Positions 23,445-58,494 of a stretch of 64,000 nt of DNA are shown piece after piece (the stretch's first letter is position 1; each line of letters starts with the position of its first letter). This DNA comes from Candidatus Zhuqueibacterota bacterium (GTDB lineage: Bacteria; Zhuqueibacterota; Zhuqueibacteria; Residuimicrobiales; Krinioviventaceae): positions 33,108 through 97,107 of the forward strand of contig JAPDQV010000010.1 of NCBI GenBank assembly GCA_034505495.1, written 5' to 3'. The notes under the pieces are model-generated. The model was given only the letters and a program-made list of their open reading frames with translations. It had not been told where the DNA came from and did not search any database. Position numbers and translations under genes: made by a program.

Positions 23445-23449
23445 AATCT

Positions 23450-33786: not shown

Positions 33787-34032
33787 AAAATGTTCTCCTT
33801 TCCTGCATTCATATTTCAAGCGCGGGATTTTTCAAAGATATTAAAATTTTATTGAATTCAAAACTCAAATCGTACATTGTTTAAAGTTGATATCGTTTCG
33901 CCTCTGCGTCAATCATTTTGCAATAAAAAATTACGAAGAGTTACTTGAGTTTATTGTTAAGAAAAACTAACATATTTTTGCAATGCATTTCCACAATATT
34001 GCCATCCGTCAACCATTTTAAGGAGAAGCGCA

Positions 34033-40190: not shown

Positions 40191-40229
40191 CTACCTCCTT
40201 TTGAATGATACTCAGCCGGACCTCATCAC

Positions 40230-42748: not shown

Positions 42749-44346
42749 GGTTCAGCCTCTTCGTGATTTTTAAGCGATATGGCGCCGGTTGGACAGGCTT
42801 CGGCGCATTGCCGAGCTGTCTTTTCCAACCCGCGCTCGAGCGATTCGTGAAACGGCACGGCAAGGCGCACCTGAAAGCCGCGTCCGACAAACGCCAATCC
42901 CAGCCGTTCCTGCGCCGCTTCGGCAATCTGAATGCAGATGCCGCATTTGATGCATTTGCCTGGTTCAAAAACCACCAGATCGTGGCGGTCTTCCACTTCC
43001 ACCCGTAATCGCTGACCCAACCGATAGCGCTTTGGGTCGGCGCCGTACTCGTGGGCATAAAGGCGCAGGCGACAGGAATTCGGCTTGCGGCAGTCGCAGT
43101 GCAGGCAGCGCTGCGCTTCGGCTACGGCTTCCTCCTCCGTAAAGCCGCCGGCCGGATCTTGGGGAGAGATTCGGTCAACCGGCGAAGCAGCTTTAGCCAT
43201 GCGTTCGACCTCTTCGGGCCGCAGGCGTCCGACGATCGAATTGAATCGGCTCGGCCTGCCGCTAATCGGCAGTCCTTTGAGATACTGATCGATCGAGTGA
43301 GCGAGGGTCTTTCCGTGGGCGACGGCGCGTACGGCCATGCGGCTTTCGGCAATCAAATTGCCGCCGGCAAAAACGCCTGCAAGCATAGTCTGCAGCGTCG
43401 TGCGGTCGACCTGAACGCCTTTGTCGCCGACTTGCAGCACGCCGCGGTAAAGCTCTGCGCCGGCGCCGGTTGTCAGAGCGACGGCGTCGTATTGATCGCG
43501 CAGCTGCCCGAGGCTGACGTCTTTGCCCAGCTCGACGCCAAAGTGTGTGCGGATGCCTAGTGCGAGGATGGTTGCGATTTCAGCATCCAGCACCTCGCGC
43601 GGCAGACGCTCGACAGGCACCGCCGAACGGAGGTTGCCGCCGGCTGCCGATTCCTTTTCATAAAGATCCACTGCATGTCCGAAGCGGCGCAAATAATAAG
43701 CGGCGGCGAGTCCGGCCGGACCGGCGCCCACGACGGCGACCCGCTTGCCGGTATCCGGCAGACACTCGGGCTGAAACGGCGTATCTGCGGCCAAATCGAG
43801 GTCGGCAACGATCTGTTTGAGCAGGCAGATCGAGACGGCGCCGTCTTTGAGTCGGCGCGTGCAGGCGTTTTCGCAGGGCGCCGGACAGATGCGGCCCAGC
43901 ACGGCCGGTAAGGCAATCTCCGCCTTGACCGTCGCGATTGCCGCCCGCCAATCGCGGTTCTGAATCTGACGAGTCATTAGCGGGATGTTCATTTGCGCCG
44001 GACAGGAGCGCTGACACGGAGCAGTGCAGTCGCCGACGTGTTCGCTGAGCAGCAGCTCGAGCGCCGAGCGCCGAAAGTCCCGCACCCGCTCGTTTTCAGT
44101 TTCAATGACCATGCCGTTCTCGGCCGGCGCCGAGCAGGACGGCATGAGTCTTCCCGAGGTTTTTTCTTCAACCATGCAGACCATGCAGGAGGTGTTGGGC
44201 GGAAAGCCTTCCAAGCGGCAGAGCGCGGGAATGAAAAAGCCCGCCGCCTCTGCGGCTGAAAAGAGGGTCGTGCCGCGCGGTACGTTCACCTCTCGGCCGT
44301 TGATGGTCAATCGCACGGCGGCTCCCTCCTCGACCTTGCGCTTCAT
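42745..44346 (-). CDS. Fe-S flavoprotein: N-terminal 2Fe-2S ferredoxin fused to a GltD/NfnB-like NAD(P)H:FAD oxidoreductase core with C-terminal 2x[4Fe-4S] ferredoxin
   Basis: LTINGREVNVPRGTTL...CRLEG..C..C (plant-type/NuoG-like 2Fe-2S). CTAPCQRSCP and CPAPCENAC (GltD N-terminal 4Fe-4S). VAVVGAGPAGLAAAYYL (FAD/NAD Rossmann). C-terminal CLHCDC...C and CIKCGICIQ...CAEACP clusters. Start at the ATG at 44344-44346, directly after the upstream stop. Confidence 0.8.
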   Translation of the reverse strand: MKRKVEEGAAVRLTINGREVNVPRGTTLFSAAEAAGFFIPALCRLEGFPPNTSCMVCMVEEKTSGRLMPSCSAPAENGMVIETENERVRDFRRSALELLLSEHVGDCTAPCQRSCPAQMNIPLMTRQIQNRDWRAAIATVKAEIALPAVLGRICPAPCENACTRRLKDGAVSICLLKQIVADLDLAADTPFQPECLPDTGKRVAVVGAGPAGLAAAYYLRRFGHAVDLYEKESAAGGNLRSAVPVERLPREVLDAEIATILALGIRTHFGVELGKDVSLGQLRDQYDAVALTTGAGAELYRGVLQVGDKGVQVDRTTLQTMLAGVFAGGNLIAESRMAVRAVAHGKTLAHSIDQYLKGLPISGRPSRFNSIVGRLRPEEVERMAKAASPVDRISPQDPAGGFTEEEAVAEAQRCLHCDCRKPNSCRLRLYAHEYGADPKRYRLGQRLRVEVEDRHDLVVFEPGKCIKCGICIQIAEAAQERLGLAFVGRGFQVRLAVPFHESLERGLEKTARQCAEACPTGAISLKNHEEAEP

Positions 44347-46736
44347 GCCGACCCTCCTTGTCTGGAAACAACCTTGACCGCCTCGATCGGGCAGACCTGC
44401 CTGCAGGCATCGCACTGGGTGCATTTATCCTGCAGAATTTCGTGCCGCTGATAAGGCGTAATCGGGATCGCCTGCACCGGACACTTTTGCGCGCAAAGCG
44501 TGCAGCCGATACAGGCGTCGGTGATTTCATAACGGATCAGCGGCCGACATTTGCCGGCGGGACAAACGCCGTGCAGATGAGCTTCATATTCATCATAAAA
44601 ATAGCGCAGCGTCGTTAATACCGGATTGGGTGCGGTTCTCCCCAAGCCGCACAGGCTGCCTTCGCGGGTTTTTTCGGCGAGCTCGCGCAGTTTTTCCAAA
44701 TCTTCTTTCTGCCCCCTGCCCTCGCACAGTTTTTCGAGAATCTCGAGCATATGCTGCGTGCCGATGCGGCAAAAAGTGCACTTGCCGCACGAATGGTCGC
44801 GGGTAAAGGTGAGAAAATAGCGGGCGATGTCGACCATACAATCGCCGTCATCCATGACCAGCAGGCCGCCCGAGCCCATCATGGCGCCGACGCGGGTGAG
44901 CGCTTCGTAATCGACCGGCGTTTCGGCAAGCTCCGCCGGCACGCAGCCGCCGGAGGGTCCGCCGACCTGCACCGCCTTGAAGCGCCTGCCGCCCGCTACG
45001 CCGCCGCCGATCTCTTCGACGATTTGACGCAGCGTCATTCCCATCGGCACTTCGATCAGACCGCCGCGCTTGACTTTACCGGCCAAGGCGAAAACTTTGG
45101 TTCCCTTGCTCTTTTCGGTCCCCAGCGCGGCAAATTTTTCCGCGCCGTGACGCAGAATCCACGGCACGGTTGCAAAGGTCTCGCAATTGTTGACCAGCGT
45201 CGGTTGACCCCACAACCCTTTCTGCGCCGGATAAGGCGGCCGATAGCGCGGCATGCCGCGGCGGCCTTCCAAAGAAGCAATCAGCGCCGTCTCTTCGCCG
45301 CAGACGAAGGCGCCTGCACCCTCTTTCACGCGCAAGCGCAGAGAAAAACCGCTTCCGAAAATATCATCGCCTAAAATCCCTTCTTCTTCGCAGCGACGCA
45401 GAGCGGCGTTGACTCGTTCCACGGCCAGCGGGTATTCGGCGCGGATGTAGAATATTCCCTCATGCGCACCGACGGCAAAGGCGGCGATGACCATGCCTTC
45501 GATGACGCGATAGGGATAGGATTCAAGAATCATGCGGTCCATAAAGGCGCCGGGATCGCCTTCGTCGCCGTTGCAGATGACGAATTTTTTATCGCTTTGC
45601 TGAGCCGCCACGAGGCGCCATTTCTCGCCGGTGGGGAATCCTGCGCCGCCGCGGCCGCGCAGACCGGAGGCCGCCACTTCGGCGATGATCTCTTGCGGCT
45701 GTTTATGCAGGAGGCATTCTCGCGCGGCAGCAAAACCGCCAGTGGTACAATAGTCCTCCAAATCCAACGGATCGAGCGAACCGGCGCGGTCGGTGACAAT
45801 GTGAACCTGGCGGTCGAGAAAGGCGGTAACCTGCGGATCGCGCACGTGCAGCGGATGGCGGGTAAAGCCGCCGTCGGATGACGGAGCAAACCATTCCTCG
45901 ATCCATTGCAGCGCGCGGCCTTTCAAGCGGGCGAACGGCGAAGCGGGCGGGAAATGCCGTAAAACGATTCCCTCGACTTGTTCGGGCGTGACGCGGTCAT
46001 AGACCACCGGTGTCTGATTCGGCTTGACAACCTCGACCAGCGGCACGCGATGGCACATGCCGACGCAGCCGACGCGTTTGATGCGCGCCGGGGCTTCCAA
46101 AGACTGAACGACCTGCAGCAGCTGTTCATGGACCTGCGCGCTGCCGCTCGATTGACAACAGGAACCCAAGCCGACGCGGATTTCGCCCGCCGCCTGAGCG
46201 GTAAAAGTCTGATCTGAACTCTGCTTGCCCGATGTTTTTCTTCGCGTCAAAAAATCGTGCAGCATGTTGCCGACCGACGCAGGCTCGACATGGCCGTAAG
46301 TAACGCGGTCGATCTGCACCACCGGCGCCAGGGTGCAGCAGCCCAGGCAAGCGACTTTTTCGACCGTAAAGAGACGGTCGCCGTCCGTGTCTTCTCCCTC
46401 TTTGAGGCGCAGCTCGCGCCTCACAGCGTCGTGAACCAAATCGGCGCCCTTGACGTGGCAGGCGGTGCCGTGACAAATATGAATGATATGCTGACCGGCC
46501 ACCGCATGCCTGAACTGGGTGTAGAACGTGGATACGCCGGCGACGGCGGCCGGGGTAATGCGCGTCAGCTCGCAGAGTCGCCTTAAAAGCGGCTCCGGCA
46601 GATAGTGAAAAGTGGTCTGGATGTCCTGCAGAATGGGGATCACGGCGTCCGGGCCGTCGCCGTGTGCGGCGATCAGCCGCTGAACGTGCTCATCCCATTC
46701 TGTGGTGGACTGCACTATGTCATTCACGATCGTCAT
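44343..46736 (-). CDS. NuoE-NuoF fusion (24-kDa 2Fe-2S thioredoxin-like + 51-kDa FMN/NAD(H)-binding subunit) with C-terminal 2x[4Fe-4S] ferredoxin; HydB/HoxF/StnC-like
   Basis: NuoE block CHGTACHVKGA...CLGCCTLAPV. NuoF blocks GRGGAGFPTGEKW, CGEETALIASLEG, SCGKCTFCRIG. Terminal CIGCTLCAQKCP...CTQCDACRQVCP. 797 aa. Confidence 0.85.
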   Translation of the reverse strand: MTIVNDIVQSTTEWDEHVQRLIAAHGDGPDAVIPILQDIQTTFHYLPEPLLRRLCELTRITPAAVAGVSTFYTQFRHAVAGQHIIHICHGTACHVKGADLVHDAVRRELRLKEGEDTDGDRLFTVEKVACLGCCTLAPVVQIDRVTYGHVEPASVGNMLHDFLTRRKTSGKQSSDQTFTAQAAGEIRVGLGSCCQSSGSAQVHEQLLQVVQSLEAPARIKRVGCVGMCHRVPLVEVVKPNQTPVVYDRVTPEQVEGIVLRHFPPASPFARLKGRALQWIEEWFAPSSDGGFTRHPLHVRDPQVTAFLDRQVHIVTDRAGSLDPLDLEDYCTTGGFAAARECLLHKQPQEIIAEVAASGLRGRGGAGFPTGEKWRLVAAQQSDKKFVICNGDEGDPGAFMDRMILESYPYRVIEGMVIAAFAVGAHEGIFYIRAEYPLAVERVNAALRRCEEEGILGDDIFGSGFSLRLRVKEGAGAFVCGEETALIASLEGRRGMPRYRPPYPAQKGLWGQPTLVNNCETFATVPWILRHGAEKFAALGTEKSKGTKVFALAGKVKRGGLIEVPMGMTLRQIVEEIGGGVAGGRRFKAVQVGGPSGGCVPAELAETPVDYEALTRVGAMMGSGGLLVMDDGDCMVDIARYFLTFTRDHSCGKCTFCRIGTQHMLEILEKLCEGRGQKEDLEKLRELAEKTREGSLCGLGRTAPNPVLTTLRYFYDEYEAHLHGVCPAGKCRPLIRYEITDACIGCTLCAQKCPVQAIPITPYQRHEILQDKCTQCDACRQVCPIEAVKVVSRQGGSA

Positions 46737-48437
46737 TTATCGGCCGATGCAGTAGAGATTTTCCGTTCCGCGAATATAGATGCGATTTTTGACGAATGCG
46801 GGGATTGTCAGCACCTCTTCGCCCAGCGGATTATCGGCTTCGAGCGTAAAGGTTTCGGACATACGAAAGATATGGGTGATGCCCTTTAGGTCTGTCAAGT
46901 AGACGCGGTCTCCGACCAGGATCGGCGAGGAATAAAAGCCGCGGTCGAAATCGTGCGACCATACCTTTTCGCCGGTATCGGCGCGCAGGCAGGTAACCGT
47001 TCCATAGCTTGCGGCCATGATGACGAAACGCTCGTCGGCGACCGGGCTGGAGACCTCGGAGAGGTCGTCGCCGTATTCCCAAATCTGTCGTGCACCGTCC
47101 GCACCGATTTCTATTGCCGCCAGTCGGGCATATTCATTGACGACGAACACGCGGCCTGCCGCAAAAGCCGGCGACGGCGCCACTTCACCGTCCATGCATT
47201 TGACCCGCCAAAGCTCCTTGCCGGTCGCCGGATCGTAAGAAATAACGAACGGGTTGGAAGAAAGTACGACTTCATCGCGATCCGCGCCGAGAATAAGAAG
47301 CGGCGAGGTCCAGGAAATCTGTACATCGTCGCGCTTGGTCTGGTAAACCAATTTGCCGTCGGTCAGGCGAAAGGCGCGCAGACTGCGCGAGCCGCGATGG
47401 TCGTACTGAACGAGCAAAAGGTCGCGATAGATGATCAGCGAAGAAGCATGGCCATAGTGATTGTCCGGTAATCCCAAATTTTTCGCCCAGATTCTCTTGC
47501 CGGAAAAATCATAACAGGCCAGATCGCCGGTGGCGAAAATCGCGCAGACGACCCGGCCGTCGGTTGCCACGGTCGGCGCGGCATAGCCGGTATCGTCCGA
47601 GACTTTGGGCAGTTCTTTGGGATGCCCGGGCACGTCGTTGATCTCGGCGCGCCATAATAGGTCGCCGGTCGCGGCATTCCAGCAATAGAGTTCCTGCGAC
47701 GATTCATCGGCGCCGGTAAAAAAGATTCTGTCTTCCCAAACCACCGGCGAGCAGTTGCCGAATTTCGGCACCGCGGTTTTCCACAAAATTCCTTCTCCTG
47801 AGGCGCCGTTCCACTTGACGGGAACAGAATCAGGGTCGACATAAGCGCGGCCGGCGCCTTCGGGTCCGCGAAAACCAGGCCAGTTGCGTCGCAGTTCTTC
47901 GAGAGAGACGGCCGGAGCTGCAGAAGAAACGGATGCAGGCTTTTTCGGTGCAAACTCTTGTTCAGCGAGAATGCCTGCCGTCAGCGCACCGACAAATAGA
48001 ACCAGCGCGCTCCAAGCCAAAGCGCGGCTTCCGGCCAGTCGAGTTTGCCATGAAATCTGCTGCGGTTGTCCTGCCAGGTCGGGAAGCGCCGGCACGCGCG
48101 ACCGAAGGTATTTCAAGGAAAGCAGGAAAACGATCATGCCGACAAAAAGCATGCGTCCGCCGAGACGGAGCTGTTCGCGTCGGGTAAAGAACGCTTTGCG
48201 TGCCAAAAGATCGAGCGCGCGAATCTGCTCCTTGAGCGCTTCATTATCGGGATCATCCTGCAGCTGCGCCATGAGCTGCTGCAGCGCCGGGCTGCGCAGA
48301 GGTGTGTTCCAACGCAACTGCAGATAATTGGCCGTCAGCAGGAGCGCCAGCACGGCGATAAAGATGCCGCTGATGATCAGCAGGCGCTCTGCCAAGGGTT
48401 TGAGAAAAGCTTCGTTCTGCAGATCTTTCCAGTTCAT
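46737..48437 (-). CDS. Membrane-anchored PQQ-like beta-propeller repeat protein with N-terminal two-TM/coiled region, paralog 3
   Basis: Two N-terminal TM helices flank a ~90-aa helical region. NWPGFRGPEGAG motif followed by PQQ-like blades (ELYCWNAATGDLLW, YDPATGKELW, RADTGEKVW). Confidence 0.7.
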   Translation of the reverse strand: MNWKDLQNEAFLKPLAERLLIISGIFIAVLALLLTANYLQLRWNTPLRSPALQQLMAQLQDDPDNEALKEQIRALDLLARKAFFTRREQLRLGGRMLFVGMIVFLLSLKYLRSRVPALPDLAGQPQQISWQTRLAGSRALAWSALVLFVGALTAGILAEQEFAPKKPASVSSAAPAVSLEELRRNWPGFRGPEGAGRAYVDPDSVPVKWNGASGEGILWKTAVPKFGNCSPVVWEDRIFFTGADESSQELYCWNAATGDLLWRAEINDVPGHPKELPKVSDDTGYAAPTVATDGRVVCAIFATGDLACYDFSGKRIWAKNLGLPDNHYGHASSLIIYRDLLLVQYDHRGSRSLRAFRLTDGKLVYQTKRDDVQISWTSPLLILGADRDEVVLSSNPFVISYDPATGKELWRVKCMDGEVAPSPAFAAGRVFVVNEYARLAAIEIGADGARQIWEYGDDLSEVSSPVADERFVIMAASYGTVTCLRADTGEKVWSHDFDRGFYSSPILVGDRVYLTDLKGITHIFRMSETFTLEADNPLGEEVLTIPAFVKNRIYIRGTENLYCIGR

Positions 48438-49744
48438 ACGCTTTTGCCTGCATTAGAGTCGTTGCCGAGGGATTCGATCGGGAAAAGGGTGTTGCCGTCT
48501 TTATCGACCGGGCAATAACTGAAACAGCGGCCGCAGCTGAGGCATTCGCCGCGATCGATTTCGTACTCACGACGAAAAGAAGGCGCAACCAAGCCGATCA
48601 GCTTGAGGCTCAACACCAGGCCGAGAAACCCGCCGAGCAGCATGCCGCCGCGTCGGAAGCGGTTCCGGATCATCGCGGCATCGGCAAAAAGCTCATCCGG
48701 TGTTTCTCCGGAAGAGCGAAAAGCGCGCACCGCCGGTGTGGCCGCTCCGCCCTTTTCTTCCGCCAGAACGTCTGCCGCCAGGGCGACGCGGGGATGCAGG
48801 CGCGCCAACGGCGCATCGAATTGGGAAAAGGCAAAGGCGCCGGCCAAGATTAAAAGCGGCGTCAGCAGGAGAAACCGCAGGATGAGGCGGCCGGACGCGG
48901 CTGCGGCCGTCGGCTGCAGGGACGGCTTTTCGATGGCGTCGAACGGACAGGAAGCTTCGCACAGCCGGCAGTTGATGCAGCGGCTTGGGGTGATGCGCAC
49001 ATGTCTTTTCGACAACCTCGACATCCAATTCAAGAGCACGCCGTAAGGGCAGAGAAAACGGCAATAAGGCCGCGCCACCACCGTTCCCAAGAGCAGCAGA
49101 GAAAAGCCGAGCGCGATCATGCGAAAACTGCTGCTGAAGCGGAAAAAGCCGACAAAGGGATCATAACGGCAAATAAGGAAACCGGCACCGACCGCCGCAG
49201 CAAGAACGGCCAAACCGAGATACAGATACGGCAGCAGGCTCAGAACGGCGCGCACCGGCAGCGGCACCGAAATCGGTTTAATAATCACGGCATCCTGTAT
49301 TGCACCCAAGGGGCAGACGGAAGCGCAAAAAGTCCGGCCGAAAAAGAGCGTCGTCAGCAGCGGCAGGGCAAAAAAGAGGATCACCGTTAAAGGGATTGCA
49401 TAGGCTGGTGAAAACAACGCCAGAGTAACGTTCTGCAGCGAACCGACCGGACAGACGCAGCCCTTGCGCCAAAAGCCGAAATAAACCAAAGAAAAGATCA
49501 TCAGCATAAAGAGTGCGCGGCGCGAGCGCAGACGGTGGGCGAAAACGACGGATGCCGTCAGTGCCGCAGCCAGAACGAACACATCCAGGTACTCCAAAGC
49601 CAAAGCCCGCGGCACCGGCGTCTGCAGTTCAGGCCGCTGATAGCCGGATTGGAAATCGGGCTTGGGAAAACGCTGCTGCACTTCCGCCAAAAGGGGCTGC
49701 GCAACGATAAAAAAGATGAGCCAAGGCAAGGCGTGACGTTTCAT
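48434..49744 (-). CDS. NapH/MauN-like integral-membrane polyferredoxin
   Basis: Signal/TM N-terminus. Two membrane CxxxCP motifs (GCVCPVG, CASVCPLG). C-terminal cytoplasmic 2x[4Fe-4S] (CINCRLCEASCP, CLSCGRCFSYCP). Confidence 0.75.
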   Translation of the reverse strand: MKRHALPWLIFFIVAQPLLAEVQQRFPKPDFQSGYQRPELQTPVPRALALEYLDVFVLAAALTASVVFAHRLRSRRALFMLMIFSLVYFGFWRKGCVCPVGSLQNVTLALFSPAYAIPLTVILFFALPLLTTLFFGRTFCASVCPLGAIQDAVIIKPISVPLPVRAVLSLLPYLYLGLAVLAAAVGAGFLICRYDPFVGFFRFSSSFRMIALGFSLLLLGTVVARPYCRFLCPYGVLLNWMSRLSKRHVRITPSRCINCRLCEASCPFDAIEKPSLQPTAAAASGRLILRFLLLTPLLILAGAFAFSQFDAPLARLHPRVALAADVLAEEKGGAATPAVRAFRSSGETPDELFADAAMIRNRFRRGGMLLGGFLGLVLSLKLIGLVAPSFRREYEIDRGECLSCGRCFSYCPVDKDGNTLFPIESLGNDSNAGKSV

Positions 49745-49821
49745 TGGACTTGTCTCAATATCGAGTTGACTTTGCCGTATGCAATCGCTGCAATTTACTC
49801 GGATGATTCATCGCCGCACGG

Positions 49822-50409
49822 TCAGGCTTTCTTTTCGGGAAGCTTTTTAGCGTACCTTAGGCCTTCCTCGCCGCGCAGAATGTACGGCGTGGAAGCGGGC
49901 ACGCGGCGAAACGCCTGTGCGGGACAGGCGCGGGCAATGGCGCACTCGTTGCAGTTGAGGCAGCGGTCGTGACGCACCTGCAGATAGAGCGAGCCGTTGC
50001 CGAACGATCCGCATCCCTTGACGCACTTGCCGCAGCCGATGCACAGCTTTTCATCGATGGTGTATTCGAAATAAGGGTCTTCCACAAAGGTGCGCTTGAT
50101 GGCGCCGGTGGGACACAATTGGCTCTCGGCGCCGGTATCGCGCGAATGCGCGCCCGGCTCCAAATAGCCGCTGCACAAGTCGCAGTAGCCGCACATCGAG
50201 TAGGAATGCACCGCCTTGACGGCCGACTCGGTCAGCACGCAGTTGATCGAGCACTTTTCGCACTGAGTGCACTTTTCCGGATCAATCTGCCACACCAGAT
50301 CATCACGTTGCGAGCGAGAAAGCGCAGCGCCTGCTGCTCCGACTACCGACAACCCGGCGGCAGTCTGCAGCACCGAGCGGATGAATTGACGTCGAGTGTG
50401 TTTTTCCAT
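49822..50409 (-). CDS. Tat-exported NapG/MauM-like ferredoxin with four [4Fe-4S]-type Cys clusters
   Basis: Twin-arginine signal MEKHTRRQFIRSVLQTAAGLSVVGAAGAA. Cys clusters CTQCEKCSINC, CGYCDLCSG, CIGCGKCVKGC, CLNCNECAIARACP. Confidence 0.75.
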   Translation of the reverse strand: MEKHTRRQFIRSVLQTAAGLSVVGAAGAALSRSQRDDLVWQIDPEKCTQCEKCSINCVLTESAVKAVHSYSMCGYCDLCSGYLEPGAHSRDTGAESQLCPTGAIKRTFVEDPYFEYTIDEKLCIGCGKCVKGCGSFGNGSLYLQVRHDRCLNCNECAIARACPAQAFRRVPASTPYILRGEEGLRYAKKLPEKKA

Positions 50410-50412
50410 TCC

Positions 50413-50634
50413 TTACCTCCCTGTCGGCGAAGCGACTGTTTCCTTCACCGCTTCAAGATCAAACCGATATTTGCAAGCCGCATATTGCGCACAGCTTGAG
50501 CACGATTCATGCTGGGAACAAGTCCGGCCATGCCAAAGGATTTTTCCCCGCATCATTCCTGCCGTGCCGACGGCCGCGGCGGCGGCAAGAACGAGCCATC
50601 TGGCGGCATCGAAGAAAAATTCTCGCCTGTTCAT
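50413..50634 (-). CDS. Small (~73 aa) Tat-signal Cys-rich protein
   Basis: ATG at 50632-50634, immediately after the stop of the upstream NHL gene (TAAGATG). MNRREFFFDAARWLVLAAAAAVGTAG Tat-like signal, then CSQHESCSSCAQYAACKY (four Cys plus His). Only visible as an internal segment of the 240-aa track ORF. Confidence 0.4.
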   Translation of the reverse strand: MNRREFFFDAARWLVLAAAAAVGTAGMMRGKILWHGRTCSQHESCSSCAQYAACKYRFDLEAVKETVASPTGR

Positions 50635-50635
50635 C

Positions 50636-51622
50636 TTAATGATCCTTTTTTTCAAATCGTCTGACCTGTTTCCGCAACGGATCCAAGGCATAGATCCGGC
50701 CTTCCGCATCGACCGCCAAATCGATGCCGACCACGGCCTCATCGAACTTTTCCGGTCCCGCGACCAGAGCGAGGAACTCACCGTGCAGGCCATGAATTTT
50801 GATGCGCGGCAATCCCTTTTCCGAGGTGACGAACGATCCGTCCGGCAATAGGGCGATGTGCGAAGGATTACAGCAGCCGCTGAATCCGTCGAGCGCAAAC
50901 GAAGACCGGCTCCACGCCGTGCGCATGCGACCGTCCGGCGTATAGTTTTCGAACTGATGCTTGCCGGGATTGACGACCCACAGCGATCCGTCTTGGTCGA
51001 GGACAAGGTCGAAATAAAAACTGGGGATGATGAATCCCTGCGAGTCATCAGAGGTCGAGCGCCGATCGATTTTGCCCAACAGGTTTCCTTGGCGATCGAA
51101 CCGCCAGACGACCTTTTGCCCGGCATCGGCAACAAAGACCTGATCTTTACCTACGGCAATCGAGGTCAGCACCGCATCGACGCCCAAATCCTGCCATTGC
51201 GCCCGCACGACACCGACAGCATCGCGAATCTGGATCGATTCGCCGTGCCCCAGATAGAGATTTCCCTGCTCATCGAAAGCCAGGCAGCTGACCGGCCTAT
51301 CCGTGGGCCATTGGGCAAGCCGGCGGCCTTCCGTCGTCAATACGAGCACCATCCGATCGCCGGAAACCGCCAATCGGTTGTCGAAAAGGGCGATCGCAAA
51401 CGGCTGCTGCAGCGGCAGGACAATCGGCTCCAGCTCATTGTAAAGTGTCTGGTGAGCCTCGCTCCGGCGGTAGCGATCGAGCCGATATTCGAAAGGATTG
51501 TCCGACCGTTGCCGAGCATCATCGCGCACGGCAGTCAGGCCGAAATAGACGGCACCGGCTACTCCTACGGCAATCACGGCATAGGTGAAAAAGCGATCGC
51601 GTTTTGTTTTTGGAGCGCTCAT
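50636..51622 (-). CDS. Membrane-anchored NHL-repeat / six-bladed beta-propeller protein
   Basis: N-terminal TM (FFTYAVIAVGVAGAVYFGL). Repeated ~40-aa blades containing DxxGNLY/DxDGSLWV/DAEGRIYALD patterns, characteristic of NHL repeats. Confidence 0.55.
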   Translation of the reverse strand: MSAPKTKRDRFFTYAVIAVGVAGAVYFGLTAVRDDARQRSDNPFEYRLDRYRRSEAHQTLYNELEPIVLPLQQPFAIALFDNRLAVSGDRMVLVLTTEGRRLAQWPTDRPVSCLAFDEQGNLYLGHGESIQIRDAVGVVRAQWQDLGVDAVLTSIAVGKDQVFVADAGQKVVWRFDRQGNLLGKIDRRSTSDDSQGFIIPSFYFDLVLDQDGSLWVVNPGKHQFENYTPDGRMRTAWSRSSFALDGFSGCCNPSHIALLPDGSFVTSEKGLPRIKIHGLHGEFLALVAGPEKFDEAVVGIDLAVDAEGRIYALDPLRKQVRRFEKKDH

Positions 51623-51628
51623 TATCTT

Positions 51629-53050
51629 TTACTCTCGCAAATCCAAACAGATCAAACGACGCGAATCGCGGCAGAGGAGCCTGCCGTCAACCAGGGCCAT
51701 AGGGCCCCATGCATCGCTGCCGTTCAACACTTTTGCCCGCGCCAAAGGCTGAAATCCGGCCGTCGTCGCACGCGCCAGAGTCAATTCGCCCTCGTCGCTG
51801 AGGATCAAAAATTTGCCGTCGGCTATAAGGTAAGGGCCGAGACCGAAACGCCATTCTCCCTCGCTGCTCCACACGATTTTTTCCGGAGCGCTCGCATGGG
51901 CGCATACAAACCGATTGCGCCTGGTGCCGGCATCTTTCGGCAAAATCGAGAACAGACAGCCTTGAAAAAAAATCGGCGTTTGCTGTTCGGAACAGAGCCC
52001 CTGATCGGGTTTATAGGCCTGCAGCAGTTCAGCGGAAAATTCCTCGCCGTTGCGGCGGATCTGGAAAACGGCGGCGCCGTTGCCGTAACCGGCGGTAAAA
52101 AAGATGCGGCCGTCACCCAGATGAATCGGCGACGGAGCAATCACGTTCGGCGCCCAAGCAGCGGACGAAAAGAGCAATCGGCCGCGATCCTCCCTTTCGG
52201 CGGAAACGCCGACGACTCCGCCGATCGCGGCATAAACGTACATCCTTTTGCCGTGAATAGTCATGGGCATTACGGACGAATGAGACATTTTCCAACCGTT
52301 GGGATTGGGCGTCTGCCAAAGGATTTCGCCGCTGCGCAGGTCGACGCCGACCAAAAGGGCGCTGCCGCCGGTGCCCAGGATCACCTGACCGTCGTCGATC
52401 AGCGGGCACTGACCGGTATACCAGAGCGGCACTTCGGCCTTGAATTCGGAAGCAATGTCGAGTCCCCAGCGGAATTCGCCGCTGAACCGGTTGACGCACA
52501 TCACCTGACATTGCGGCCCGATGGTGACGACAAAGCTGTCGGCAATTGCGGGAACCGTGCGCGACATGCCGTGATTGCGTTTGGTGTAAATGTCGTAGCC
52601 GCGTTGCCACAGCTCGGTGCCGTCGGCAAAAGAGAAACAGCGCAGCAGATCACGCCGCTTTTCTTCATCATAATCCAGCACATAGACGCGGCCGTCCGCC
52701 ACCGCGGGTCCGGCGTGCCCTTCTCCCAAATCCACAGACCAAAGTACCTTGGGACCTCCCTCCGGCCAGCGTTCGGCCAACCGATAAGAGTCTCGGCTAA
52801 TGTTGTCGAATCGCTCGCCGCGAAAGCGCGGCCATGCGCCGGAAGCAGGCGGAACGATCGGATTCAGCAGTTGAAAAAAAGAACCAATGCGCACGCCGGC
52901 AGCCGCCTGCAGCTCCGCCGGTCGGCCGTCCATGCCCGGACGAAATTCTGTGAAATGAGCGGCCGGATCATAAAGCAACCAATAAGCCAAAGCAATGACG
53001 GAAGCCAGACTGAAGAAAAACGTGAGGAAATTTTGGATTCTTTTGCTCAT
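51629..53050 (-). CDS. Membrane-anchored PQQ-like beta-propeller repeat protein, paralog 4
   Basis: Start at the ATG at 53048-53050 (MSKRIQNFLTFFFSLASVIALAYWLL TM anchor). AWPRFRGERFDN motif; blades with DGTELW, RSGEILW, DGRLLC. Confidence 0.7.
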   Translation of the reverse strand: MSKRIQNFLTFFFSLASVIALAYWLLYDPAAHFTEFRPGMDGRPAELQAAAGVRIGSFFQLLNPIVPPASGAWPRFRGERFDNISRDSYRLAERWPEGGPKVLWSVDLGEGHAGPAVADGRVYVLDYDEEKRRDLLRCFSFADGTELWQRGYDIYTKRNHGMSRTVPAIADSFVVTIGPQCQVMCVNRFSGEFRWGLDIASEFKAEVPLWYTGQCPLIDDGQVILGTGGSALLVGVDLRSGEILWQTPNPNGWKMSHSSVMPMTIHGKRMYVYAAIGGVVGVSAEREDRGRLLFSSAAWAPNVIAPSPIHLGDGRIFFTAGYGNGAAVFQIRRNGEEFSAELLQAYKPDQGLCSEQQTPIFFQGCLFSILPKDAGTRRNRFVCAHASAPEKIVWSSEGEWRFGLGPYLIADGKFLILSDEGELTLARATTAGFQPLARAKVLNGSDAWGPMALVDGRLLCRDSRRLICLDLRE

Positions 53051-53166
53051 GGCCGGAGCTGGTTTTCCTGGAATTTGAAAAAACGGCAAGGGCTACCGAC
53101 AGAAAATCTCCGATGCACTGTTTATAAGCCGGACGGGCTGCCAGGCTGTCCCGCCGGCATGAATCT

Positions 53167-54375
53167 CTATTGGGGTCGGCTGAGATCGTAGACCAACATT
53201 ACCTCTCCATGTCGAATGTAGAGGCGGCCGTTTTTGATCACCGGGTGCGCCCAATGCGGGCCTGAACCTTGTTTGATCTTGAATGTGCTGATCAACCGAA
53301 AGGTTTTGGGATCTGGTTTGATCAACGACACGGCGCCGTTTTCACTATACGCATAGATCATACCGTCGGCCGTGATGACGGCGGCGCGACGGACGAGCGT
53401 GCGATCATCAAACCCGACGGCACCGGTACGCCAATCCAGCGCCGTAAACCCGCCGTTGGAATAACCGGCGCCGTAGATGAAACCGTCGATCAGGACATAA
53501 TGACCGATTAAAGCGTCAAGCCGGTCGCTTTGCCATACTGGACGAACCGTTCTGCCGTCCGCCGAAATCTGCAGCAAAGCGCCGGTTCCGGTTTCGCCGC
53601 TATGGAAAAAGACGGCACCGTCATGGTAGATCGGCGTGTTGGCGTGAATGTCGTAGGGCGCCGTATGAGGATAACGCCACAACAACTCGCCGCTCTGTGC
53701 ATGCACGCCGATGATCGATTTCTGCAGGGCAGTAATCAGCATGGGGATGCCGTTATGCTTGACAAGGATCGGCGAGCAGTAGGAAGAGGATTCGCCGTTG
53801 CCTGCACACGTCCACAAAGTTTTGCCGCTCCACCGATCCAAGGCCGCCATGGCGGTTTTGCCGCCGGGCGTACAATAGATTGTGCCCCCGTCCACCAAAA
53901 GCTGCTCGGCAATGCCCCACTCGACCTCTATGCCGCCGAAACGTTTGTAAAGATCGGCGCTCCATATTTTTTCGCCGTCCAATGAAAGACAATAGAGGAC
54001 ACCTTGACCGCTCAACAAATAGAGACGATCGTTCGTCACCACCGGCGTGGATCGGGTGCCGGGGTAATTGCGCGTCCATTCCGGGCCATAGTCCTTTTCC
54101 CACAGCTTTTTGCCCTGCAGATCAAAGGCGAACAGGCGACCGACGCCGTCGAACTGGCCGGTCACATAAACGCGCTGCTCGGTGACTGCGGCGGATGTAT
54201 AGCCTTGTCCAAGACCATCCGCCTGCCAAAGCAGTTTCGGTCCTCCTTCCGGCCATACAGTCAGCAAAGATTCGTCGGGATAATGGCCGTCCCGTTTGGG
54301 GCCGCGCCATTGCGACAAGACTTGAGCGCCTGCCGCGGCGGCCAGAAGAAAGACGAGGAAAAGGCCTTTATTCAT
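53167..54375 (-). CDS. Secreted PQQ-like beta-propeller repeat protein, paralog 5
   Basis: Start at the ATG at 54373-54375 (MNKGLFLVFLLAAAAGAQVLSQWRGPKRDG). ~45% identical over its length to paralogs 6 and 7 (LWEKDYGPEW / LWKTIYGKEW / RWKTALSGQW). Confidence 0.75.
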   Translation of the reverse strand: MNKGLFLVFLLAAAAGAQVLSQWRGPKRDGHYPDESLLTVWPEGGPKLLWQADGLGQGYTSAAVTEQRVYVTGQFDGVGRLFAFDLQGKKLWEKDYGPEWTRNYPGTRSTPVVTNDRLYLLSGQGVLYCLSLDGEKIWSADLYKRFGGIEVEWGIAEQLLVDGGTIYCTPGGKTAMAALDRWSGKTLWTCAGNGESSSYCSPILVKHNGIPMLITALQKSIIGVHAQSGELLWRYPHTAPYDIHANTPIYHDGAVFFHSGETGTGALLQISADGRTVRPVWQSDRLDALIGHYVLIDGFIYGAGYSNGGFTALDWRTGAVGFDDRTLVRRAAVITADGMIYAYSENGAVSLIKPDPKTFRLISTFKIKQGSGPHWAHPVIKNGRLYIRHGEVMLVYDLSRPQ

Positions 54376-54388
54376 ATTTTCTCCAAGG

Positions 54389-55597
54389 TTACTTGGAAAT
54401 ATCGTAAACGAGCAAAACGTCGCCATGCCGAATATAGAGACGGCCGGCGTGGATGACCGGATGCGCCCAATGGGGACCGCTGCCCTCGGTAATGGAAAAG
54501 GCGCTGACCGGTTCGAATTTCTGCGGATTCGGCCTGACCAACACCACATCGCCTCGCTCGCTGTAGAGGTAGAGAAGACCGTCTGCAGCGATCAGCGGTC
54601 CTTTACCGCCGTACTCACGCGCAGTCCACATCAGTTTGCCGGTCTTGGCGTCCAAACAGGCCCAACCGCGGCTATTATGGCCTGAACTGTAAATGAAATC
54701 ACCGATCCATACCGCGCCGGCCATTTGGCTGTCCGGCGCTTTGGCGGTAAAAAGCTGCTTGACTTTACTGCCTTCCGGCGACAACTCGAGCATCTGCCCG
54801 CCCGTTCCATAGCCGCTGAGCGCAAATACCCGACCTTCGGAATAAAGCGGTGTGTTGGGATTCACGTCCCAACTTGTGATGTGCGGTTGACGCCAAAGCA
54901 GCTCGCCGCTTTCGGCGTCGACACCGATAACCGACTTTTGCGTCATGGTCAGGATCAGAGAGCGATTGCCGTGCTTGACCAACAGCGGCGAGCAATAAGC
55001 CGACAGCTCACCGTTGCCTTTGCACTGCCAGACGGTTTTGCCGGTGTGGCGGTCAAGGGCCGCCATCAGCACCGATACACCGCCGGGGGTGCAGATCATC
55101 CGGTCGCCGTCGATGAGCGGTGATTCCGCCATGCCCCATTCCGGCAGTCGGCCGCCGAAGGTTTTGAGCAGATCGACGCTCCACACCACCTTACCGGATG
55201 TCGTGAGACAAACCGCCGTCCCCACGCCGCTTATCAGATAGATGCGATCGTCGACGACGGTCGGTGTACTGCGCGCCCCCTCATGACCGCCGCTCCATTC
55301 CTTGCCGTAGATAGTTTTCCACAGCAGCTTTCCCTGATGATCCAACGCAAATAGAATTCCATTCTCGCCCACCAGCGAAGTTACGTAAACCGCCTGCGAA
55401 GTGACGGCCGGGGAAGAATAGCCGATGCCCAAGCCGGAAGCAGACCACACCTTTTGCGGTCCGCCGGCAGGCCAGGCGCTTATGAGGTTCTGTTCCGGGT
55501 ATTTGCCATCCCTCTGCGGTCCGCGCCATTGCGAAAGGACCTCGGCATGGAGATTAAAACAAAGGATCAATAAAAGAAAAAGCAAACTCTTTTTCAT
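54389..55597 (-). CDS. Secreted PQQ-like beta-propeller repeat protein, paralog 6
   Basis: MKKSLLFLLLILCFNLHAEVLSQWRGPQRDG. ATGA overlap with the stop of paralog 7. Confidence 0.75.
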   Translation of the reverse strand: MKKSLLFLLLILCFNLHAEVLSQWRGPQRDGKYPEQNLISAWPAGGPQKVWSASGLGIGYSSPAVTSQAVYVTSLVGENGILFALDHQGKLLWKTIYGKEWSGGHEGARSTPTVVDDRIYLISGVGTAVCLTTSGKVVWSVDLLKTFGGRLPEWGMAESPLIDGDRMICTPGGVSVLMAALDRHTGKTVWQCKGNGELSAYCSPLLVKHGNRSLILTMTQKSVIGVDAESGELLWRQPHITSWDVNPNTPLYSEGRVFALSGYGTGGQMLELSPEGSKVKQLFTAKAPDSQMAGAVWIGDFIYSSGHNSRGWACLDAKTGKLMWTAREYGGKGPLIAADGLLYLYSERGDVVLVRPNPQKFEPVSAFSITEGSGPHWAHPVIHAGRLYIRHGDVLLVYDISK

Positions 55598-58427: not shown

Positions 58428-58494
58428 CGCGAACCATCCTTGCAAAGAGTTAGGATTTCAGCGTAATGTAAAACGTCACGGATCATAATTGATG

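What the first reader, a model, noticed from the sequence alone, without database searches (positions are those of the whole stretch)
48434..50634. NapG/NapH-like Tat-ferredoxin + membrane polyferredoxin pair without NapAB, followed by a small Tat-exported Cys4 protein
The 195-aa Tat-signal protein with four [4Fe-4S]-type Cys clusters and the 436-aa membrane protein with two CxxxCP membrane motifs plus two cytoplasmic 4Fe-4S motifs match the NapG/NapH (MauM/MauN) quinol-dehydrogenase architecture. No nitrate reductase, methylamine dehydrogenase or N2O reductase genes are nearby. Immediately downstream is a 73-aa ORF whose ATG starts 2 nt after the upstream stop. It has a Tat-like signal and a C-x5-C-x2-C-x5-C (+His) cluster and is invisible in standard ORF calls because it is nested in a longer out-of-frame ORF. 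This could be a dedicated periplasmic electron carrier.
Basis: partly seen in the sequence, partly recalled or inferred. Interest (0 to 1): 0.6.

Follow-up and report, generated by a model that had tools for sequence, protein, structure and literature searches.

The report
Tat ferredoxin, NapH-like partner, unannotated microprotein
The three reported genes are real and sit in a tightly packed gene cluster of unknown function that recurs in hundreds of bacterial species; it appears built to carry electrons from cytoplasmic NAD(P)H across the membrane, and its 73-residue cysteine-rich member is a conserved protein family that genome annotation mostly misses or leaves unnamed.

Summary
All three ORFs exist on the minus strand with the reported motifs. 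The gene order was misdescribed: the 73-aa ORF lies upstream of the ferredoxin, 2 nt after the stop of an NHL-propeller gene. The window comes from a candidate division KSB1 MAG.

The ferredoxin has a twin-arginine signal and 16 Cys. The membrane protein has two CX3CP and two CX2CX2CX3CP motifs. They resemble NapG/NapH in architecture but score far below the curated NapG/NapH/MauMN cut-offs. No nap, nos or mau genes occur in the 64 kb.

The pair belongs to an operon conserved in at least 575 species of more than 10 phyla. Its order is PQQ_2 beta-propellers, NHL propeller, small ORF, ferredoxin, NapH-like protein, membrane-anchored propeller, a NuoE-NuoF fusion and a GltD-like protein. The last two match NfnABC/Stn electron-bifurcating enzymes.

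The small ORF is present in 69 of 83 evaluable loci. It has an [ST]RRxFLK motif, a weakly hydrophobic helix with basic residues after it, and C-x5-C-x2-C-x5-C. That motif and its conservation pattern match E. coli RseC, whose motif binds a [4Fe-4S] cluster. No Pfam or NCBIfam family covers it, and the source MAG does not annotate it.

Best reading: a Tat-inserted, membrane-anchored Fe-S subunit of a transmembrane electron conduit, not a soluble HiPIP- or rubredoxin-like carrier. The function is inferred, not shown.

The parts
50413..50634 (-). Small ORF, 73 aa. It has a Tat-type N-terminus (MNRREFF), a weakly hydrophobic helix, RGK, then C39-x5-C45-x2-C48-x5-C54. An AGGA sits 8 nt before the ATG, and the ATG lies 2 nt after the NHL stop. 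The ORF's stop is 3 nt before the ferredoxin ATG.
49822..50409 (-). Tat-signal ferredoxin, 195 aa, 16 Cys, predicted to bind four [4Fe-4S] clusters. It is more than 68% identical across phyla.
48434..49744 (-). NapH/NosR-superfamily polytopic protein, 436 aa. It has two Fer4_5 CX3CP motifs and two CX2CX2CX3CP motifs, the latter split by a two-helix insertion.
50636..51622 (-). NHL/SGL-like beta-propeller, 328 aa, with an N-terminal hydrophobic anchor and an invariant G-C-C-N-P motif.
46737..48437 (-). PQQ_2 (BamB-like) beta-propeller, 566 aa, with three N-terminal hydrophobic helices. Its start overlaps the NapH-like stop as ATGA.
44343..46736 (-). NuoE-NuoF fusion, 797 aa, with an extra 2Fe-2S domain and a C-terminal 2x[4Fe-4S] domain, the BfuC-BfuB architecture. 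Best solved match is NfnB 9n5u_B, E 1.7e-217.
42745..44424 (-). NfnA/StnA-like protein with an N-terminal 2Fe-2S domain and a GltD-like NAD(P)H/FAD domain. The true start is probably the ATG at 44346, which overlaps the upstream stop.
51629..56862 (-). Four tandem PQQ_2 (BamB-like) beta-propeller genes upstream: 56862..55594, 55597..54389, 54549..53167 and 53089..51629.
38955..42748 (-). Downstream PQQ_2 propeller (42748..41516), GT4 glycosyltransferase (41519..40230) and PQQ_2 propeller (40190..38955).

Best explanation
Shown by sequence. The three genes are the centre of a tightly coupled minus-strand operon in a KSB1 bacterium. The order is PQQ_2 beta-propellers, NHL propeller, 73-aa protein, Tat ferredoxin, NapH-like polytopic Fe-S protein, membrane-anchored propeller, NuoE-NuoF fusion, GltD-like protein, then further propellers.

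Inferred.
- The cytoplasmic NuoEF/GltD pair is an NfnABC/Stn-type (Bfu-family) flavoenzyme that exchanges electrons with NAD(P)H.
- Its iron-sulfur chain hands electrons to the cytoplasm-facing 2x[4Fe-4S] domain of the NapH-like protein.
- The NapH-like protein passes them across the membrane to the Tat-exported four-cluster ferredoxin.
- The ferredoxin serves the periplasmic or membrane-anchored beta-propeller proteins, whose substrate is unknown. The flow could also run in reverse.
- The 73-aa protein is a real microprotein. Its N-terminus is a Tat-type signal very like that of the ferredoxin. The signal is probably not cleaved, so it would act as a membrane anchor.
- Its C-terminal tail of about 35 residues would then sit in the periplasm. 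It carries an RseC-type CX5CX2CX5C motif that most likely binds a [4Fe-4S] cluster.
- Translational coupling to the ferredoxin suggests a stoichiometric accessory subunit (electron relay, docking or assembly) of the ferredoxin/NapH-like module.
- It is dispensable in some lineages, being absent in 14 of 83 loci.
For: Operon and synteny:
- Gaps or overlaps between successive genes are 2 nt, 3 nt, 77 nt, an ATGA overlap, 0 nt and an ATGA overlap.
- The same order holds in 80 loci from at least 575 matching species of KSB1, Latescibacterota, Aminicenantes, Calditrichota, Acidobacteria, Planctomycetota, Kiritimatiellae, Bacteroidales, Spirochaetes, Poribacteria and others.
- Counts of loci with each neighbour in place: NapH-like 73/74, TM-propeller 70/71, NuoEF 63/66, GltD-like 58/63, NHL 72/74.

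Cytoplasmic module:
- The NuoEF fusion matches NfnB 9n5u_B over its full length (E 1.7e-217) and Stn 8oh5_B.
- The GltD-like protein matches NfnA/StnA N-terminal regions (E 1e-101 to 1e-94).
- These enzymes are described as NADPH/NAD/ferredoxin bifurcating enzymes (abstracts listed).

Small ORF:
- It is present in 69 of 83 evaluable loci, and in 59 its stop lies within -20..+40 nt of the ferredoxin start.
- RR and the last three Cys are invariant, and F is nearly invariant.
- pN 0.245 is below pS 0.727 against the closest relative.
- The summed Hessa hydrophobicity of the h-region has a median of +2.8. The ferredoxin Tat signal gives +3.0 and the NHL anchor gives -2.0. A median of 3 basic residues follow the h-region.
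- That is the signature of Tat-dependent transmembrane segments reported in PMC5449189.
- Sub-threshold hits go to Tat-signal models: TIGR01409 in 6/33, TIGR02811 in 8/33 and PF10518 in 6/52 members.
- hhalign of the small-protein profile against the ferredoxin profile gives 95.9% probability and E 6e-9 over 62 columns.
- AlphaFold2 gives a confident helix for residues 3-28.

Cys motif:
- E. coli RseC has the same CX5CX2CX5C motif, with the first Cys variable. It reconstitutes an O2-sensitive [4Fe-4S] cluster and acts with the Rsx/Rnf membrane complex (PMC11729352).
- hhalign aligns the two motifs in register.
Against: - No experiment supports any step.
- Nothing shows physical contact between the Bfu-like module and the NapH-like protein. 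Synteny is the only link.
- RseC's motif is cytoplasmic, and similarity to it is at motif level only (hhalign probability 3%).
- The segment after the helix is strongly basic (KRRRLLREGK in Planctomycetota). By the positive-inside rule, that could also keep the Cys tail in the cytoplasm.
- 8 of 69 homologues have RK, RQ or no twin arginine, and 9 of 69 lack the first Cys.
- The Cys region is modelled at pLDDT below 50.
- Cluster type and metal were not tested.
- The protein is missing from 14 loci that keep everything else.
- The propellers have no recognisable cofactor site or substrate.
- The literature search covered only an open-access library.
Confidence: 0.5

Rival explanations
1. The ferredoxin/NapH-like pair works as in NapGH or NosGH. 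It would be a (mena)quinol dehydrogenase feeding periplasmic acceptors. The neighbouring NuoEF/GltD enzyme would be a separate soluble transhydrogenase that is merely co-regulated.
For: The pair has the NapG/NapH-like architecture: a Tat four-cluster ferredoxin plus a CX3CP polytopic protein. The weak best NCBIfam hit of the membrane protein is NapH/MauN. NapGH-like modules occur outside nap operons (PMC5449189).
Against: Scores are far below the NapG/NapH cut-offs. The pair is followed by the NuoEF and GltD-like genes in 63/66 and 58/63 loci across more than 10 phyla, with overlapping start and stop codons in the window. A membrane-anchored propeller gene is wedged between them. No quinol-site evidence exists either way.
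Confidence: 0.25
2. The small protein is an RseC-like cytoplasm-facing Fe-S accessory or assembly factor. The hydrophobic helix would tether it to the membrane, or to the NapH-like protein, with the Cys tail inside. It would help mature or regulate the complex, and the RRxF motif would not be a Tat signal.
For: The CX5CX2CX5C motif and its conservation pattern are identical to those of RseC, whose motif is cytoplasmic and acts with a membrane redox complex. The segment after the helix is strongly basic. Some homologues lack RR. The protein is dispensable in 14 loci.
Against: 61 of 69 homologues keep RR in a full [ST]RRxF[LI][KR] context. The helix is too weakly hydrophobic for Sec/YidC insertion and matches the co-encoded ferredoxin's Tat signal. 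The domain order is the reverse of RseC, and no RseC_MucC hit reaches threshold (1/52 members at E 0.03).
Confidence: 0.2
3. One reading: the small protein is a soluble, Tat-exported periplasmic electron carrier of the HiPIP or rubredoxin kind, released by signal peptidase.
For: It has a Tat-type N-terminus and four Cys, and it is syntenic with redox proteins.
Against: There is no HiPIP or rubredoxin family hit, even at E up to 1. No conserved A-x-A-like site follows the h-region. The released peptide would be only about 35-45 residues. The first Cys is not invariant.
Confidence: 0.07
4. The 73-aa ORF is a chance ORF in a GC-rich intergenic spacer, or the pair is a fragment of a split nap operon.
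For: The ORF is not annotated in the source MAG. A single-sequence word search found nothing.
Against: The ORF is conserved in frame, position and motif in 69 of 83 loci from many phyla. pN is below pS. A profile search finds 51 database proteins. No nap genes occur in the 64 kb.
Confidence: 0.01

Closest known systems
NapG/NapH (and MauM/MauN, NosG/NosH) quinol-dehydrogenase modules
   Same: A Tat-targeted ferredoxin with four Cys groups is paired with a polytopic membrane protein. That protein carries two CX3CP motifs (Pfam Fer4_5) and two cytoplasmic CX2CX2CX3CP motifs.
   Different: Scores are 5-10 times below the curated family cut-offs. The two 4Fe-4S motifs of the membrane protein are split by a two-helix insertion, and the protein is 436 aa with an N-terminal signal-like segment. 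There is no NapAB, MauAB or NosZ. The pair is always linked to an NfnABC/Stn-like module and to beta-propellers.
NfnABC / StnABC (BfuABC family) electron-bifurcating transhydrogenases
   Same: The NuoE-NuoF fusion matches NfnB/StnC over its full length, including the extra 2Fe-2S and C-terminal 2x[4Fe-4S] domains. The GltD-like protein matches the N-terminal part of NfnA/StnA.
   Different: The C and B subunits are fused. The A-like subunit is about half length (559 aa against 963-1178 aa). The enzyme is encoded in one operon with membrane and exported Fe-S proteins, instead of acting on soluble ferredoxin. This context was not found in the Bfu survey PMC9304861 when the paper was searched for propeller, PQQ and NapH.
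RseC / RnfF N-terminal domain (Pfam PF04246), accessory of the Rsx/Rnf complex
   Same: Identical CX5CX2CX5C spacing, with the first Cys variable and the last three conserved. The window reads C-SQHES-C-SS-C-AQYAA-C and E. coli RseC reads C-DVKAS-C-SS-C-ASRAG-C. Both are small membrane proteins attached to a membrane electron-transfer system. In RseC the motif binds an O2-sensitive [4Fe-4S] cluster.
   Different: The order is reversed: here helix then motif, in RseC motif then two helices. There is one helix instead of two, a Tat-type motif is present, and the flanking beta-strand domain is missing. Similarity is not significant, so membership is not claimed.
Dual Sec/Tat polyferredoxins (NapH-NapG fusions) and Tat-dependent transmembrane anchors such as Rieske proteins (PMC5449189)
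   Same: A twin-arginine motif sits directly before a weakly hydrophobic helix, followed by basic residues and a cofactor-binding domain.
   Different: Here NapH-like and NapG-like are separate genes. The Tat-anchored element is a free-standing 73-aa protein.
TIGR02811 'formate dehydrogenase region TAT target' small proteins
   Same: Proteins of 70 aa or less, consisting of a Tat signal plus a short conserved tail, encoded beside a redox enzyme. 8 of 33 small-ORF homologues give sub-threshold hits.
   Different: The similarity lies in the signal only. The tail motif and the genomic partner are different.

Membership tests
NapG / MauM ferredoxin (TIGR00397, NF007012) | Score at or above the curated HMM cut-off | tested here: not met
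   15.4 bits against 178.85, and 21.8 against 269
NapG / MauM ferredoxin | Twin-arginine signal and four [4Fe-4S] Cys groups | tested here: met
   TRRQFIR, with R6 and R7 invariant in 60 homologues, and 16 invariant Cys. No TatP or SignalP tool was available.
NapG / MauM ferredoxin | Encoded with napAB (or mauAB, nosZ) | tested here: not met
   None in the 64 kb. None among the 25 commonest Pfam families of 124 flank ORFs of related loci.
NapH / MauN (TIGR02163, NF007013) | Score at or above the curated HMM cut-off | tested here: not met
   39.5 bits against 213.05, and 36.3 against 234
NapH / MauN | Two CX3CP motifs and two C-terminal CX2CX2CX3CP motifs on a polytopic protein | tested here: met
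   C140-C144P, C228-C232P, C256..C266P and C401..C411P, with 2x Fer4_5. The two 4Fe-4S motifs are separated by a two-helix insertion.
NapH / MauN | Quinol oxidation | not testable with these tools
   Needs biochemistry.
Tat substrate (small ORF) | [ST]RRxFLK motif, weakly hydrophobic h-region, basic c-region | tested here: met
   RR in 61 of 69 homologues. h-region Hessa sum +2.8, against +3.0 for the ferredoxin signal and -2.0 for the NHL anchor. Median of 3 basic residues after the h-region. Tat-signal HMM hits are sub-threshold only. Export itself was not tested.
HiPIP / rubredoxin (small ORF) | Family HMM match or characteristic Cys spacing | tested here: not met
   No Pfam or NCBIfam hit at E up to 1. 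The spacing has one CX2C only, not two knuckles.
RseC/MucC (PF04246) (small ORF) | HMM match; N-terminal Cys domain followed by two TM helices | tested here: not met
   1 of 52 members at E 0.03. hhalign probability 3%, though the motif aligns in register. The architecture is reversed.
RseC/MucC | CX5CX2CX5C with the last three Cys conserved | tested here: met
   C45, C48 and C54 are invariant and C39 is at least 90% conserved. Compared with PMC11729352.
BfuBC / NfnABC-Stn | NuoE-like 2Fe-2S; NuoF-like FMN/4Fe-4S with an extra N-terminal 2Fe-2S and a C-terminal 2x[4Fe-4S]; GltD-like partner | tested here: met
   Pfam and NCBIfam domain order. 9n5u_B at E 1.7e-217 over residues 186-791. 9bov_A, 8oh5_C and 9n5u_A at E 1e-101 to 1e-94. 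Bifurcation itself was not tested.

The most novel reading that the evidence does not exclude
The cluster is a previously undescribed, widespread type of respiratory or biosynthetic machine. A Bfu-type flavin-based bifurcating enzyme would be wired through a NapH-like protein, rather than to soluble ferredoxin. That would export low-potential electrons to a Tat-delivered ferredoxin, and to a roughly 35-residue Tat-anchored [4Fe-4S] ectodomain, among the smallest Fe-S proteins known. This would power unknown reductive chemistry by BamB-like and NHL beta-propellers in the periplasm of anaerobic polysaccharide degraders.
Probability: 0.3. Interest if true: 0.85.

Novelty: new variant of a known kind. 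Interest (0 to 1): 0.62.

Why it matters
If the reading holds, it defines a conserved electron-export system in hundreds of mostly uncultured species, plus cultivable Marinifilum, Labilibaculum and Perlabentimonas. It would link the recently defined Bfu bifurcating enzymes to the membrane and the periplasm. It would also give a role to the large and enigmatic 'BamB-like PQQ_2 propeller' families of Planctomycetota, Kiritimatiellae and related phyla. Finally, it adds a conserved microprotein family that annotation pipelines miss or leave as 'hypothetical'. That family offers a second, independent context for the poorly understood RseC-type Fe-S motif.

Tried and rejected
Searches for the small ORF:
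- A word-index search with the single 73-aa sequence found nothing.
- An exhaustive phmmer search gave only 3 true small homologues at E about 1e-4, plus two spurious repeat proteins.

Structure prediction:
- AlphaFold2 of the small protein resolved only the helix. The Cys region had pLDDT below 50, so no fold search was run.
- AlphaFold2 of the ferredoxin with a 60-sequence but low-diversity alignment failed (pLDDT 43.6). Its fold search was therefore dropped as meaningless.
- PDB sequence searches for the ferredoxin, NapH-like, NHL and PQQ_2 proteins gave only generic Fe-S, NHL or BamB hits.

Literature and other scans:
- Six of the eight searches looked for the cluster or its parts and found no description of it. 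One hit (PMC6797604) was a false lead, matching 'NaphS2'.
- The promoter/terminator scan was at background level.
- A bulk Pfam survey of 124 flank ORFs found only more propellers and some GT4 glycosyltransferases, and no terminal reductase.

Ideas considered:
- I considered that the small ORF arose by duplication of the ferredoxin's 5' end. With signals included, hhalign gives 95.9%. With signals removed it gives only E 0.053, though in the same register. This remains a suggestion.
- I considered TTQ/CTQ-type small subunits (MauA, QhpC) and rejected them. There is no conserved Trp or Tyr in the tail and no radical-SAM or protease partner inside the operon.

Full report
OBSERVATION

All genes in question lie on the minus strand. 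Reading 5' to 3' on that strand, the order is:
- four PQQ_2 (BamB-like) beta-propeller genes (56862..51629);
- a 328-aa NHL/SGL-like propeller with an N-terminal hydrophobic anchor (51622..50636);
- the 73-aa ORF (50634..50413);
- the 195-aa ferredoxin (50409..49822);
- the 436-aa polytopic Fe-S protein (49744..48434);
- a 566-aa PQQ_2 propeller with three N-terminal helices (48437..46737);
- a 797-aa NuoE-NuoF fusion (46736..44343);
- a GltD-like protein (44424 or, more likely, 44346..42745);
- another propeller, a GT4 glycosyltransferase and a last propeller (42748..38955).

The gaps are those of a translationally coupled operon:
- 2 nt between the NHL stop and the small-ORF ATG, with AGGA 8 nt upstream of the ATG;
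- 3 nt between the small-ORF stop and the ferredoxin ATG, with GGGAGG upstream;
- 77 nt to the NapH-like gene;
- ATGA overlaps at 48434-48437 and at 44343-44346;
- 0 nt at 46736/46737.

The small ORF, however, is upstream of the ferredoxin, not downstream of the pair. The stop it follows belongs to the NHL gene. It is the in-frame 3' end of a spurious 240-aa TTG ORF.

The window is a candidate division KSB1 MAG, shown by a 100% match of the ferredoxin. In that record the NapH-like protein is MDZ7315739 ('4Fe-4S binding protein') and the NHL protein is MDZ7315741 ('hypothetical protein'). That leaves one accession, presumably the ferredoxin's. The 73-aa sequence is absent from the 15-billion-protein collection, so it was not annotated.

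FAMILY TESTS FOR THE PAIR

The ferredoxin has TRRQFIR and 16 Cys in four groups. R6, R7 and all 16 Cys are invariant in 60 homologues.

The membrane protein has two Fer4_5 CX3CP motifs and two CX2CX2CX3CP motifs. The latter are about 130 residues apart, with two hydrophobic helices between them. Both therefore face the same side. Given the very basic flanks, that side is presumably the cytoplasm.

Both proteins fail the curated models by a wide margin:
- mauM_napG scores 15.4 bits against a cut-off of 178.85;
- NapG scores 21.8 against 269;
- napH_ scores 39.5 against 213.05;
- NapH scores 36.3 against 234;
- NosR scores 30.6 against 1000.

No solved structure is close. They work like a NapG/NapH pair in architecture, but they are not members of those families. 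No NapA, NapB, NosZ, MauAB or cytochrome c family occurs among the large ORFs of the 64 kb. The rest of the window is otherwise rich in glycoside hydrolases.

CONTEXT IS CONSERVED ACROSS PHYLA

The ferredoxin is extraordinarily conserved. Its best 120 homologues are about 70% identical or more, and they include proteins from KSB1, Latescibacterota, Gemmatimonadetes and Aminicenantes. In all, 6138 database clusters score E <= 1e-10.

The 80 best loci come from the following groups:
- KSB1, Latescibacterota, Aminicenantes, Calditrichota and Acidobacteria;
- Planctomycetota, Kiritimatiellae, Lentisphaeria and Verrucomicrobiota;
- Spirochaetes, Poribacteria and Firestonebacteria;
- Bacteroidales, including cultured Marinifilum fragile, M. 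flexuosum and Perlabentimonas gracilis, plus a Labilibaculum MAG.

tblastn with the window proteins shows the same order almost everywhere:

| Neighbour | Loci with it in place |
|---|---|
| NHL upstream | 72/74 |
| NapH-like | 73/74 |
| TM-propeller | 70/71 |
| NuoEF | 63/66 |
| GltD-like | 58/63 |

Distal flanks hold mainly more PQQ_2 propellers (29 of 124 ORFs) and some GT4 glycosyltransferases (7 of 124). No known terminal reductase appears among the commonest families.

THE CYTOPLASMIC MODULE

- Residues 186-791 of the NuoE-NuoF fusion align with the whole of NfnB (9n5u_B, E 1.7e-217). It also matches the Stn and NfnABC B subunits and HydB.
- Residues 1-185 are NuoE-like.
- It carries the extra 2Fe-2S domain and the C-terminal 2x[4Fe-4S] domain.
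- The GltD-like protein matches the N-terminal roughly 290 residues of NfnA/StnA (E 1e-101 to 1e-94).
- These enzymes oxidise NADPH while reducing NAD and ferredoxin (abstracts of PMC11829005, PMC12018979 and PMC10482914).
- The Bfu family survey PMC9304861 lists many BfuB clades of unknown function. It does not contain 'propeller', 'PQQ' or 'NapH'.

THE SMALL ORF IS A REAL, CONSERVED GENE

A relaxed scan finds the ORF in 69 of 83 evaluable distinct loci:
- It is always on the ferredoxin strand, between the NHL and ferredoxin genes.
- In 59 loci its stop lies within -20..+40 nt of the ferredoxin start.
- 60 of 69 have four Cys and 61 of 69 have RR. The exceptions have RK or RQ, and two lack the motif altogether.

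It is truly absent from 14 loci. Most have NHL-ferredoxin gaps of 110 nt or less, and no copy was found elsewhere in their locus. One of the 14 (L052) keeps an N-terminally truncated copy, and one (L031) has only 382 nt of upstream sequence.

Alignments give the pattern [ST]-R-R-x-F-[LI]-[KR], a conserved Arg about 8 residues later, and an h-region of about 17 residues rich in G, A and L. Basic residues follow, then C-x5-C-x2-C-x5-C-x-[LE]-P-x-A. RR and the last three Cys are invariant. The first Cys is 90% or more conserved.

Against the closest relative (ferredoxin 91% identical), the small protein is 59% identical, with pN 0.245 below pS 0.727. In that relative there is no upstream in-frame Met, which supports the ATG at 50634.

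A profile search returns 51 database proteins. All are unnamed or 'hypothetical protein' and none has a Pfam domain. Gene callers often skip the ORF (L086, L088) or call the out-of-frame extension (L087). No Pfam or NCBIfam family matches.

TAT-TYPE ANCHOR

- The summed Hessa hydrophobicity of the best 17-residue window is +2.8 (median, n=56). That is indistinguishable from the ferredoxins' Tat signals (+3.0) and far from the NHL proteins' anchors (-2.0).
- A median of 3 basic residues follow the h-region.
- Low hydrophobicity plus C-terminal positive charges, directly after a twin-arginine motif, is the signature of Tat-dependent transmembrane segments established in PMC5449189.
- Sub-threshold hits go preferentially to Tat-signal models. 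The best PDB 'hit' is the Tat signal plus first Cys of a formate dehydrogenase.
- The small-protein profile aligns with the ferredoxin profile at 95.9% probability (E 6e-9, 62 columns).
- On an equal footing (profile against single sequence), the ferredoxin gives 31 columns and E 4e-5. An unrelated Tat protein from the same window gives 18 columns and E 0.009.
- With signals removed, the Cys regions still align in register: C45/C48/C54 with ferredoxin C47/C50/C57, and 'LP' after the last Cys in both. This is not significant (E 0.053). Origin by partial duplication is therefore only a suggestion.
- No conserved small-x-small cleavage site follows the h-region, so I infer an uncleaved signal-anchor.
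- AlphaFold2 models residues 3-28 as a confident helix and leaves the Cys tail undefined.

THE CYS MOTIF

The only paper in the library with this spacing concerns E. coli RseC (PMC11729352):
- RseC has a CX5CX2CX5C motif in which the first Cys is not conserved or needed.
- The other three form an O2-sensitive [4Fe-4S] cluster.
- RseC is an accessory of the Rsx/Rnf membrane electron-transfer complex.

The window motif (C-SQHES-C-SS-C-AQYAA-C) aligns in register with RseC (C-DVKAS-C-SS-C-ASRAG-C), but without statistical support (probability 3%). The architecture is reversed, and RseC's motif is cytoplasmic. I therefore claim 'works like', not membership. Weak hits to WhiB (3 of 52 members) point to the same CX2CX5C cluster-binding logic.

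MECHANISM

Shown: gene order, coupling, motifs, conservation and homologies.

Inferred:
- Electrons pass between cytoplasmic NAD(P)H, at the NfnABC/Stn-like flavoenzyme, and the periplasm.
- The route runs through the NapH-like protein's cytoplasmic clusters and its CX3CP region, then through the Tat-exported four-cluster ferredoxin.
- The periplasmic partners are the NHL propeller and the BamB-like propellers. The NHL propeller has an invariant vicinal GCCNP motif.
- The microprotein would be a Tat-inserted, membrane-anchored [4Fe-4S] subunit made in step with the ferredoxin. It could serve as an extra relay, a docking element or an assembly aid.
- It is dispensable where it has been lost.

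Direction of flow, substrate, quinone involvement, cluster type and topology are all untested. The main rivals are a NapGH-style quinol dehydrogenase with an unrelated neighbouring transhydrogenase, and a cytoplasm-facing RseC-like accessory.

NOVELTY

The parts belong to known superfamilies. The combination, and the microprotein family, were not found in curated family libraries or in the searchable literature. That library is open-access only, so prior description cannot be excluded. I rate the finding a new variant of a known kind, of moderate to high interest. Cultured carriers make it testable.

Noticed in passing
window 50636-51622 (-), residues 247-253: The NHL-like propeller has an invariant F-x-G-C-C-N-P motif with vicinal cysteines C250-C251. 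It is conserved in at least 90% of 71 homologues across phyla. It could be a redox-active vicinal disulfide or a metal site.
   Followed up: partly
window 44343-44424: The GltD/NfnA-like ORF is listed from the ATG at 44424. Met27 (ATG at 44346) overlaps the NuoEF stop as ATGA, and many homologue alignments begin near residue 37. The real start is probably 44346.
   Followed up: partly
window 53167-54549 (-): This PQQ_2 ORF probably starts at Met59 (54375, MNKGLFLVF..., a signal peptide). The listed ATG overlaps the upstream gene by about 160 nt.
   Followed up: no
window 40230-41519 (-); flanks of L006-L085: A GT4-type glycosyltransferase is embedded among the propeller genes. GT4 domains recur in 7 of 124 flank ORFs of related loci. 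This hints that the system may touch envelope or glycan chemistry.
   Followed up: partly
window 50413-50634 vs 49822-50409: The small protein's N-terminal 60 residues resemble the ferredoxin's own N-terminus: its signal plus the first Cys motif, with 'LP' after the last Cys in both. This suggests origin by partial tandem duplication, or a shared Tat-chaperone recognition.
   Followed up: partly
window 56997-58445 (-) and 33945-35540 (+): There are two Gfo/Idh/MocA oxidoreductases, and the first has a clear twin-arginine signal (MTRRSFLKTGAAAAALSA). A Gfo/Idh/MocA gene also sits upstream of the cluster in L005.
   Followed up: no
window 21867-24649 (-): Adjacent B12-binding radical SAM and radical SAM/SPASM genes. 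No peptide substrate was looked for.
   Followed up: no
L087 3-506; L086 2957-3169; L088 4768-5001: Gene callers either skip the small ORF or call a 167-aa out-of-frame-extended product. This is a systematic annotation error for the family.
   Followed up: yes
L075 and L081 (Rikenellaceae MAG, Perlabentimonas gracilis), upstream of the ferredoxin: This variant of the small protein lacks the twin arginine and has only CX2CX5C (MSKNTLNKVLRFF...SPCSTCSKVSSCDLPEA). L029, L037, L046, L061, L079 and L083 have RQ or RK in place of RR.
   Followed up: partly
window 50858-53191 (+) and 50413-51135 (-): Long ORFs (777 aa and 240 aa) overlap the real genes out of frame or antisense. They have no family support and look like GC-rich artefacts.
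   Followed up: partly
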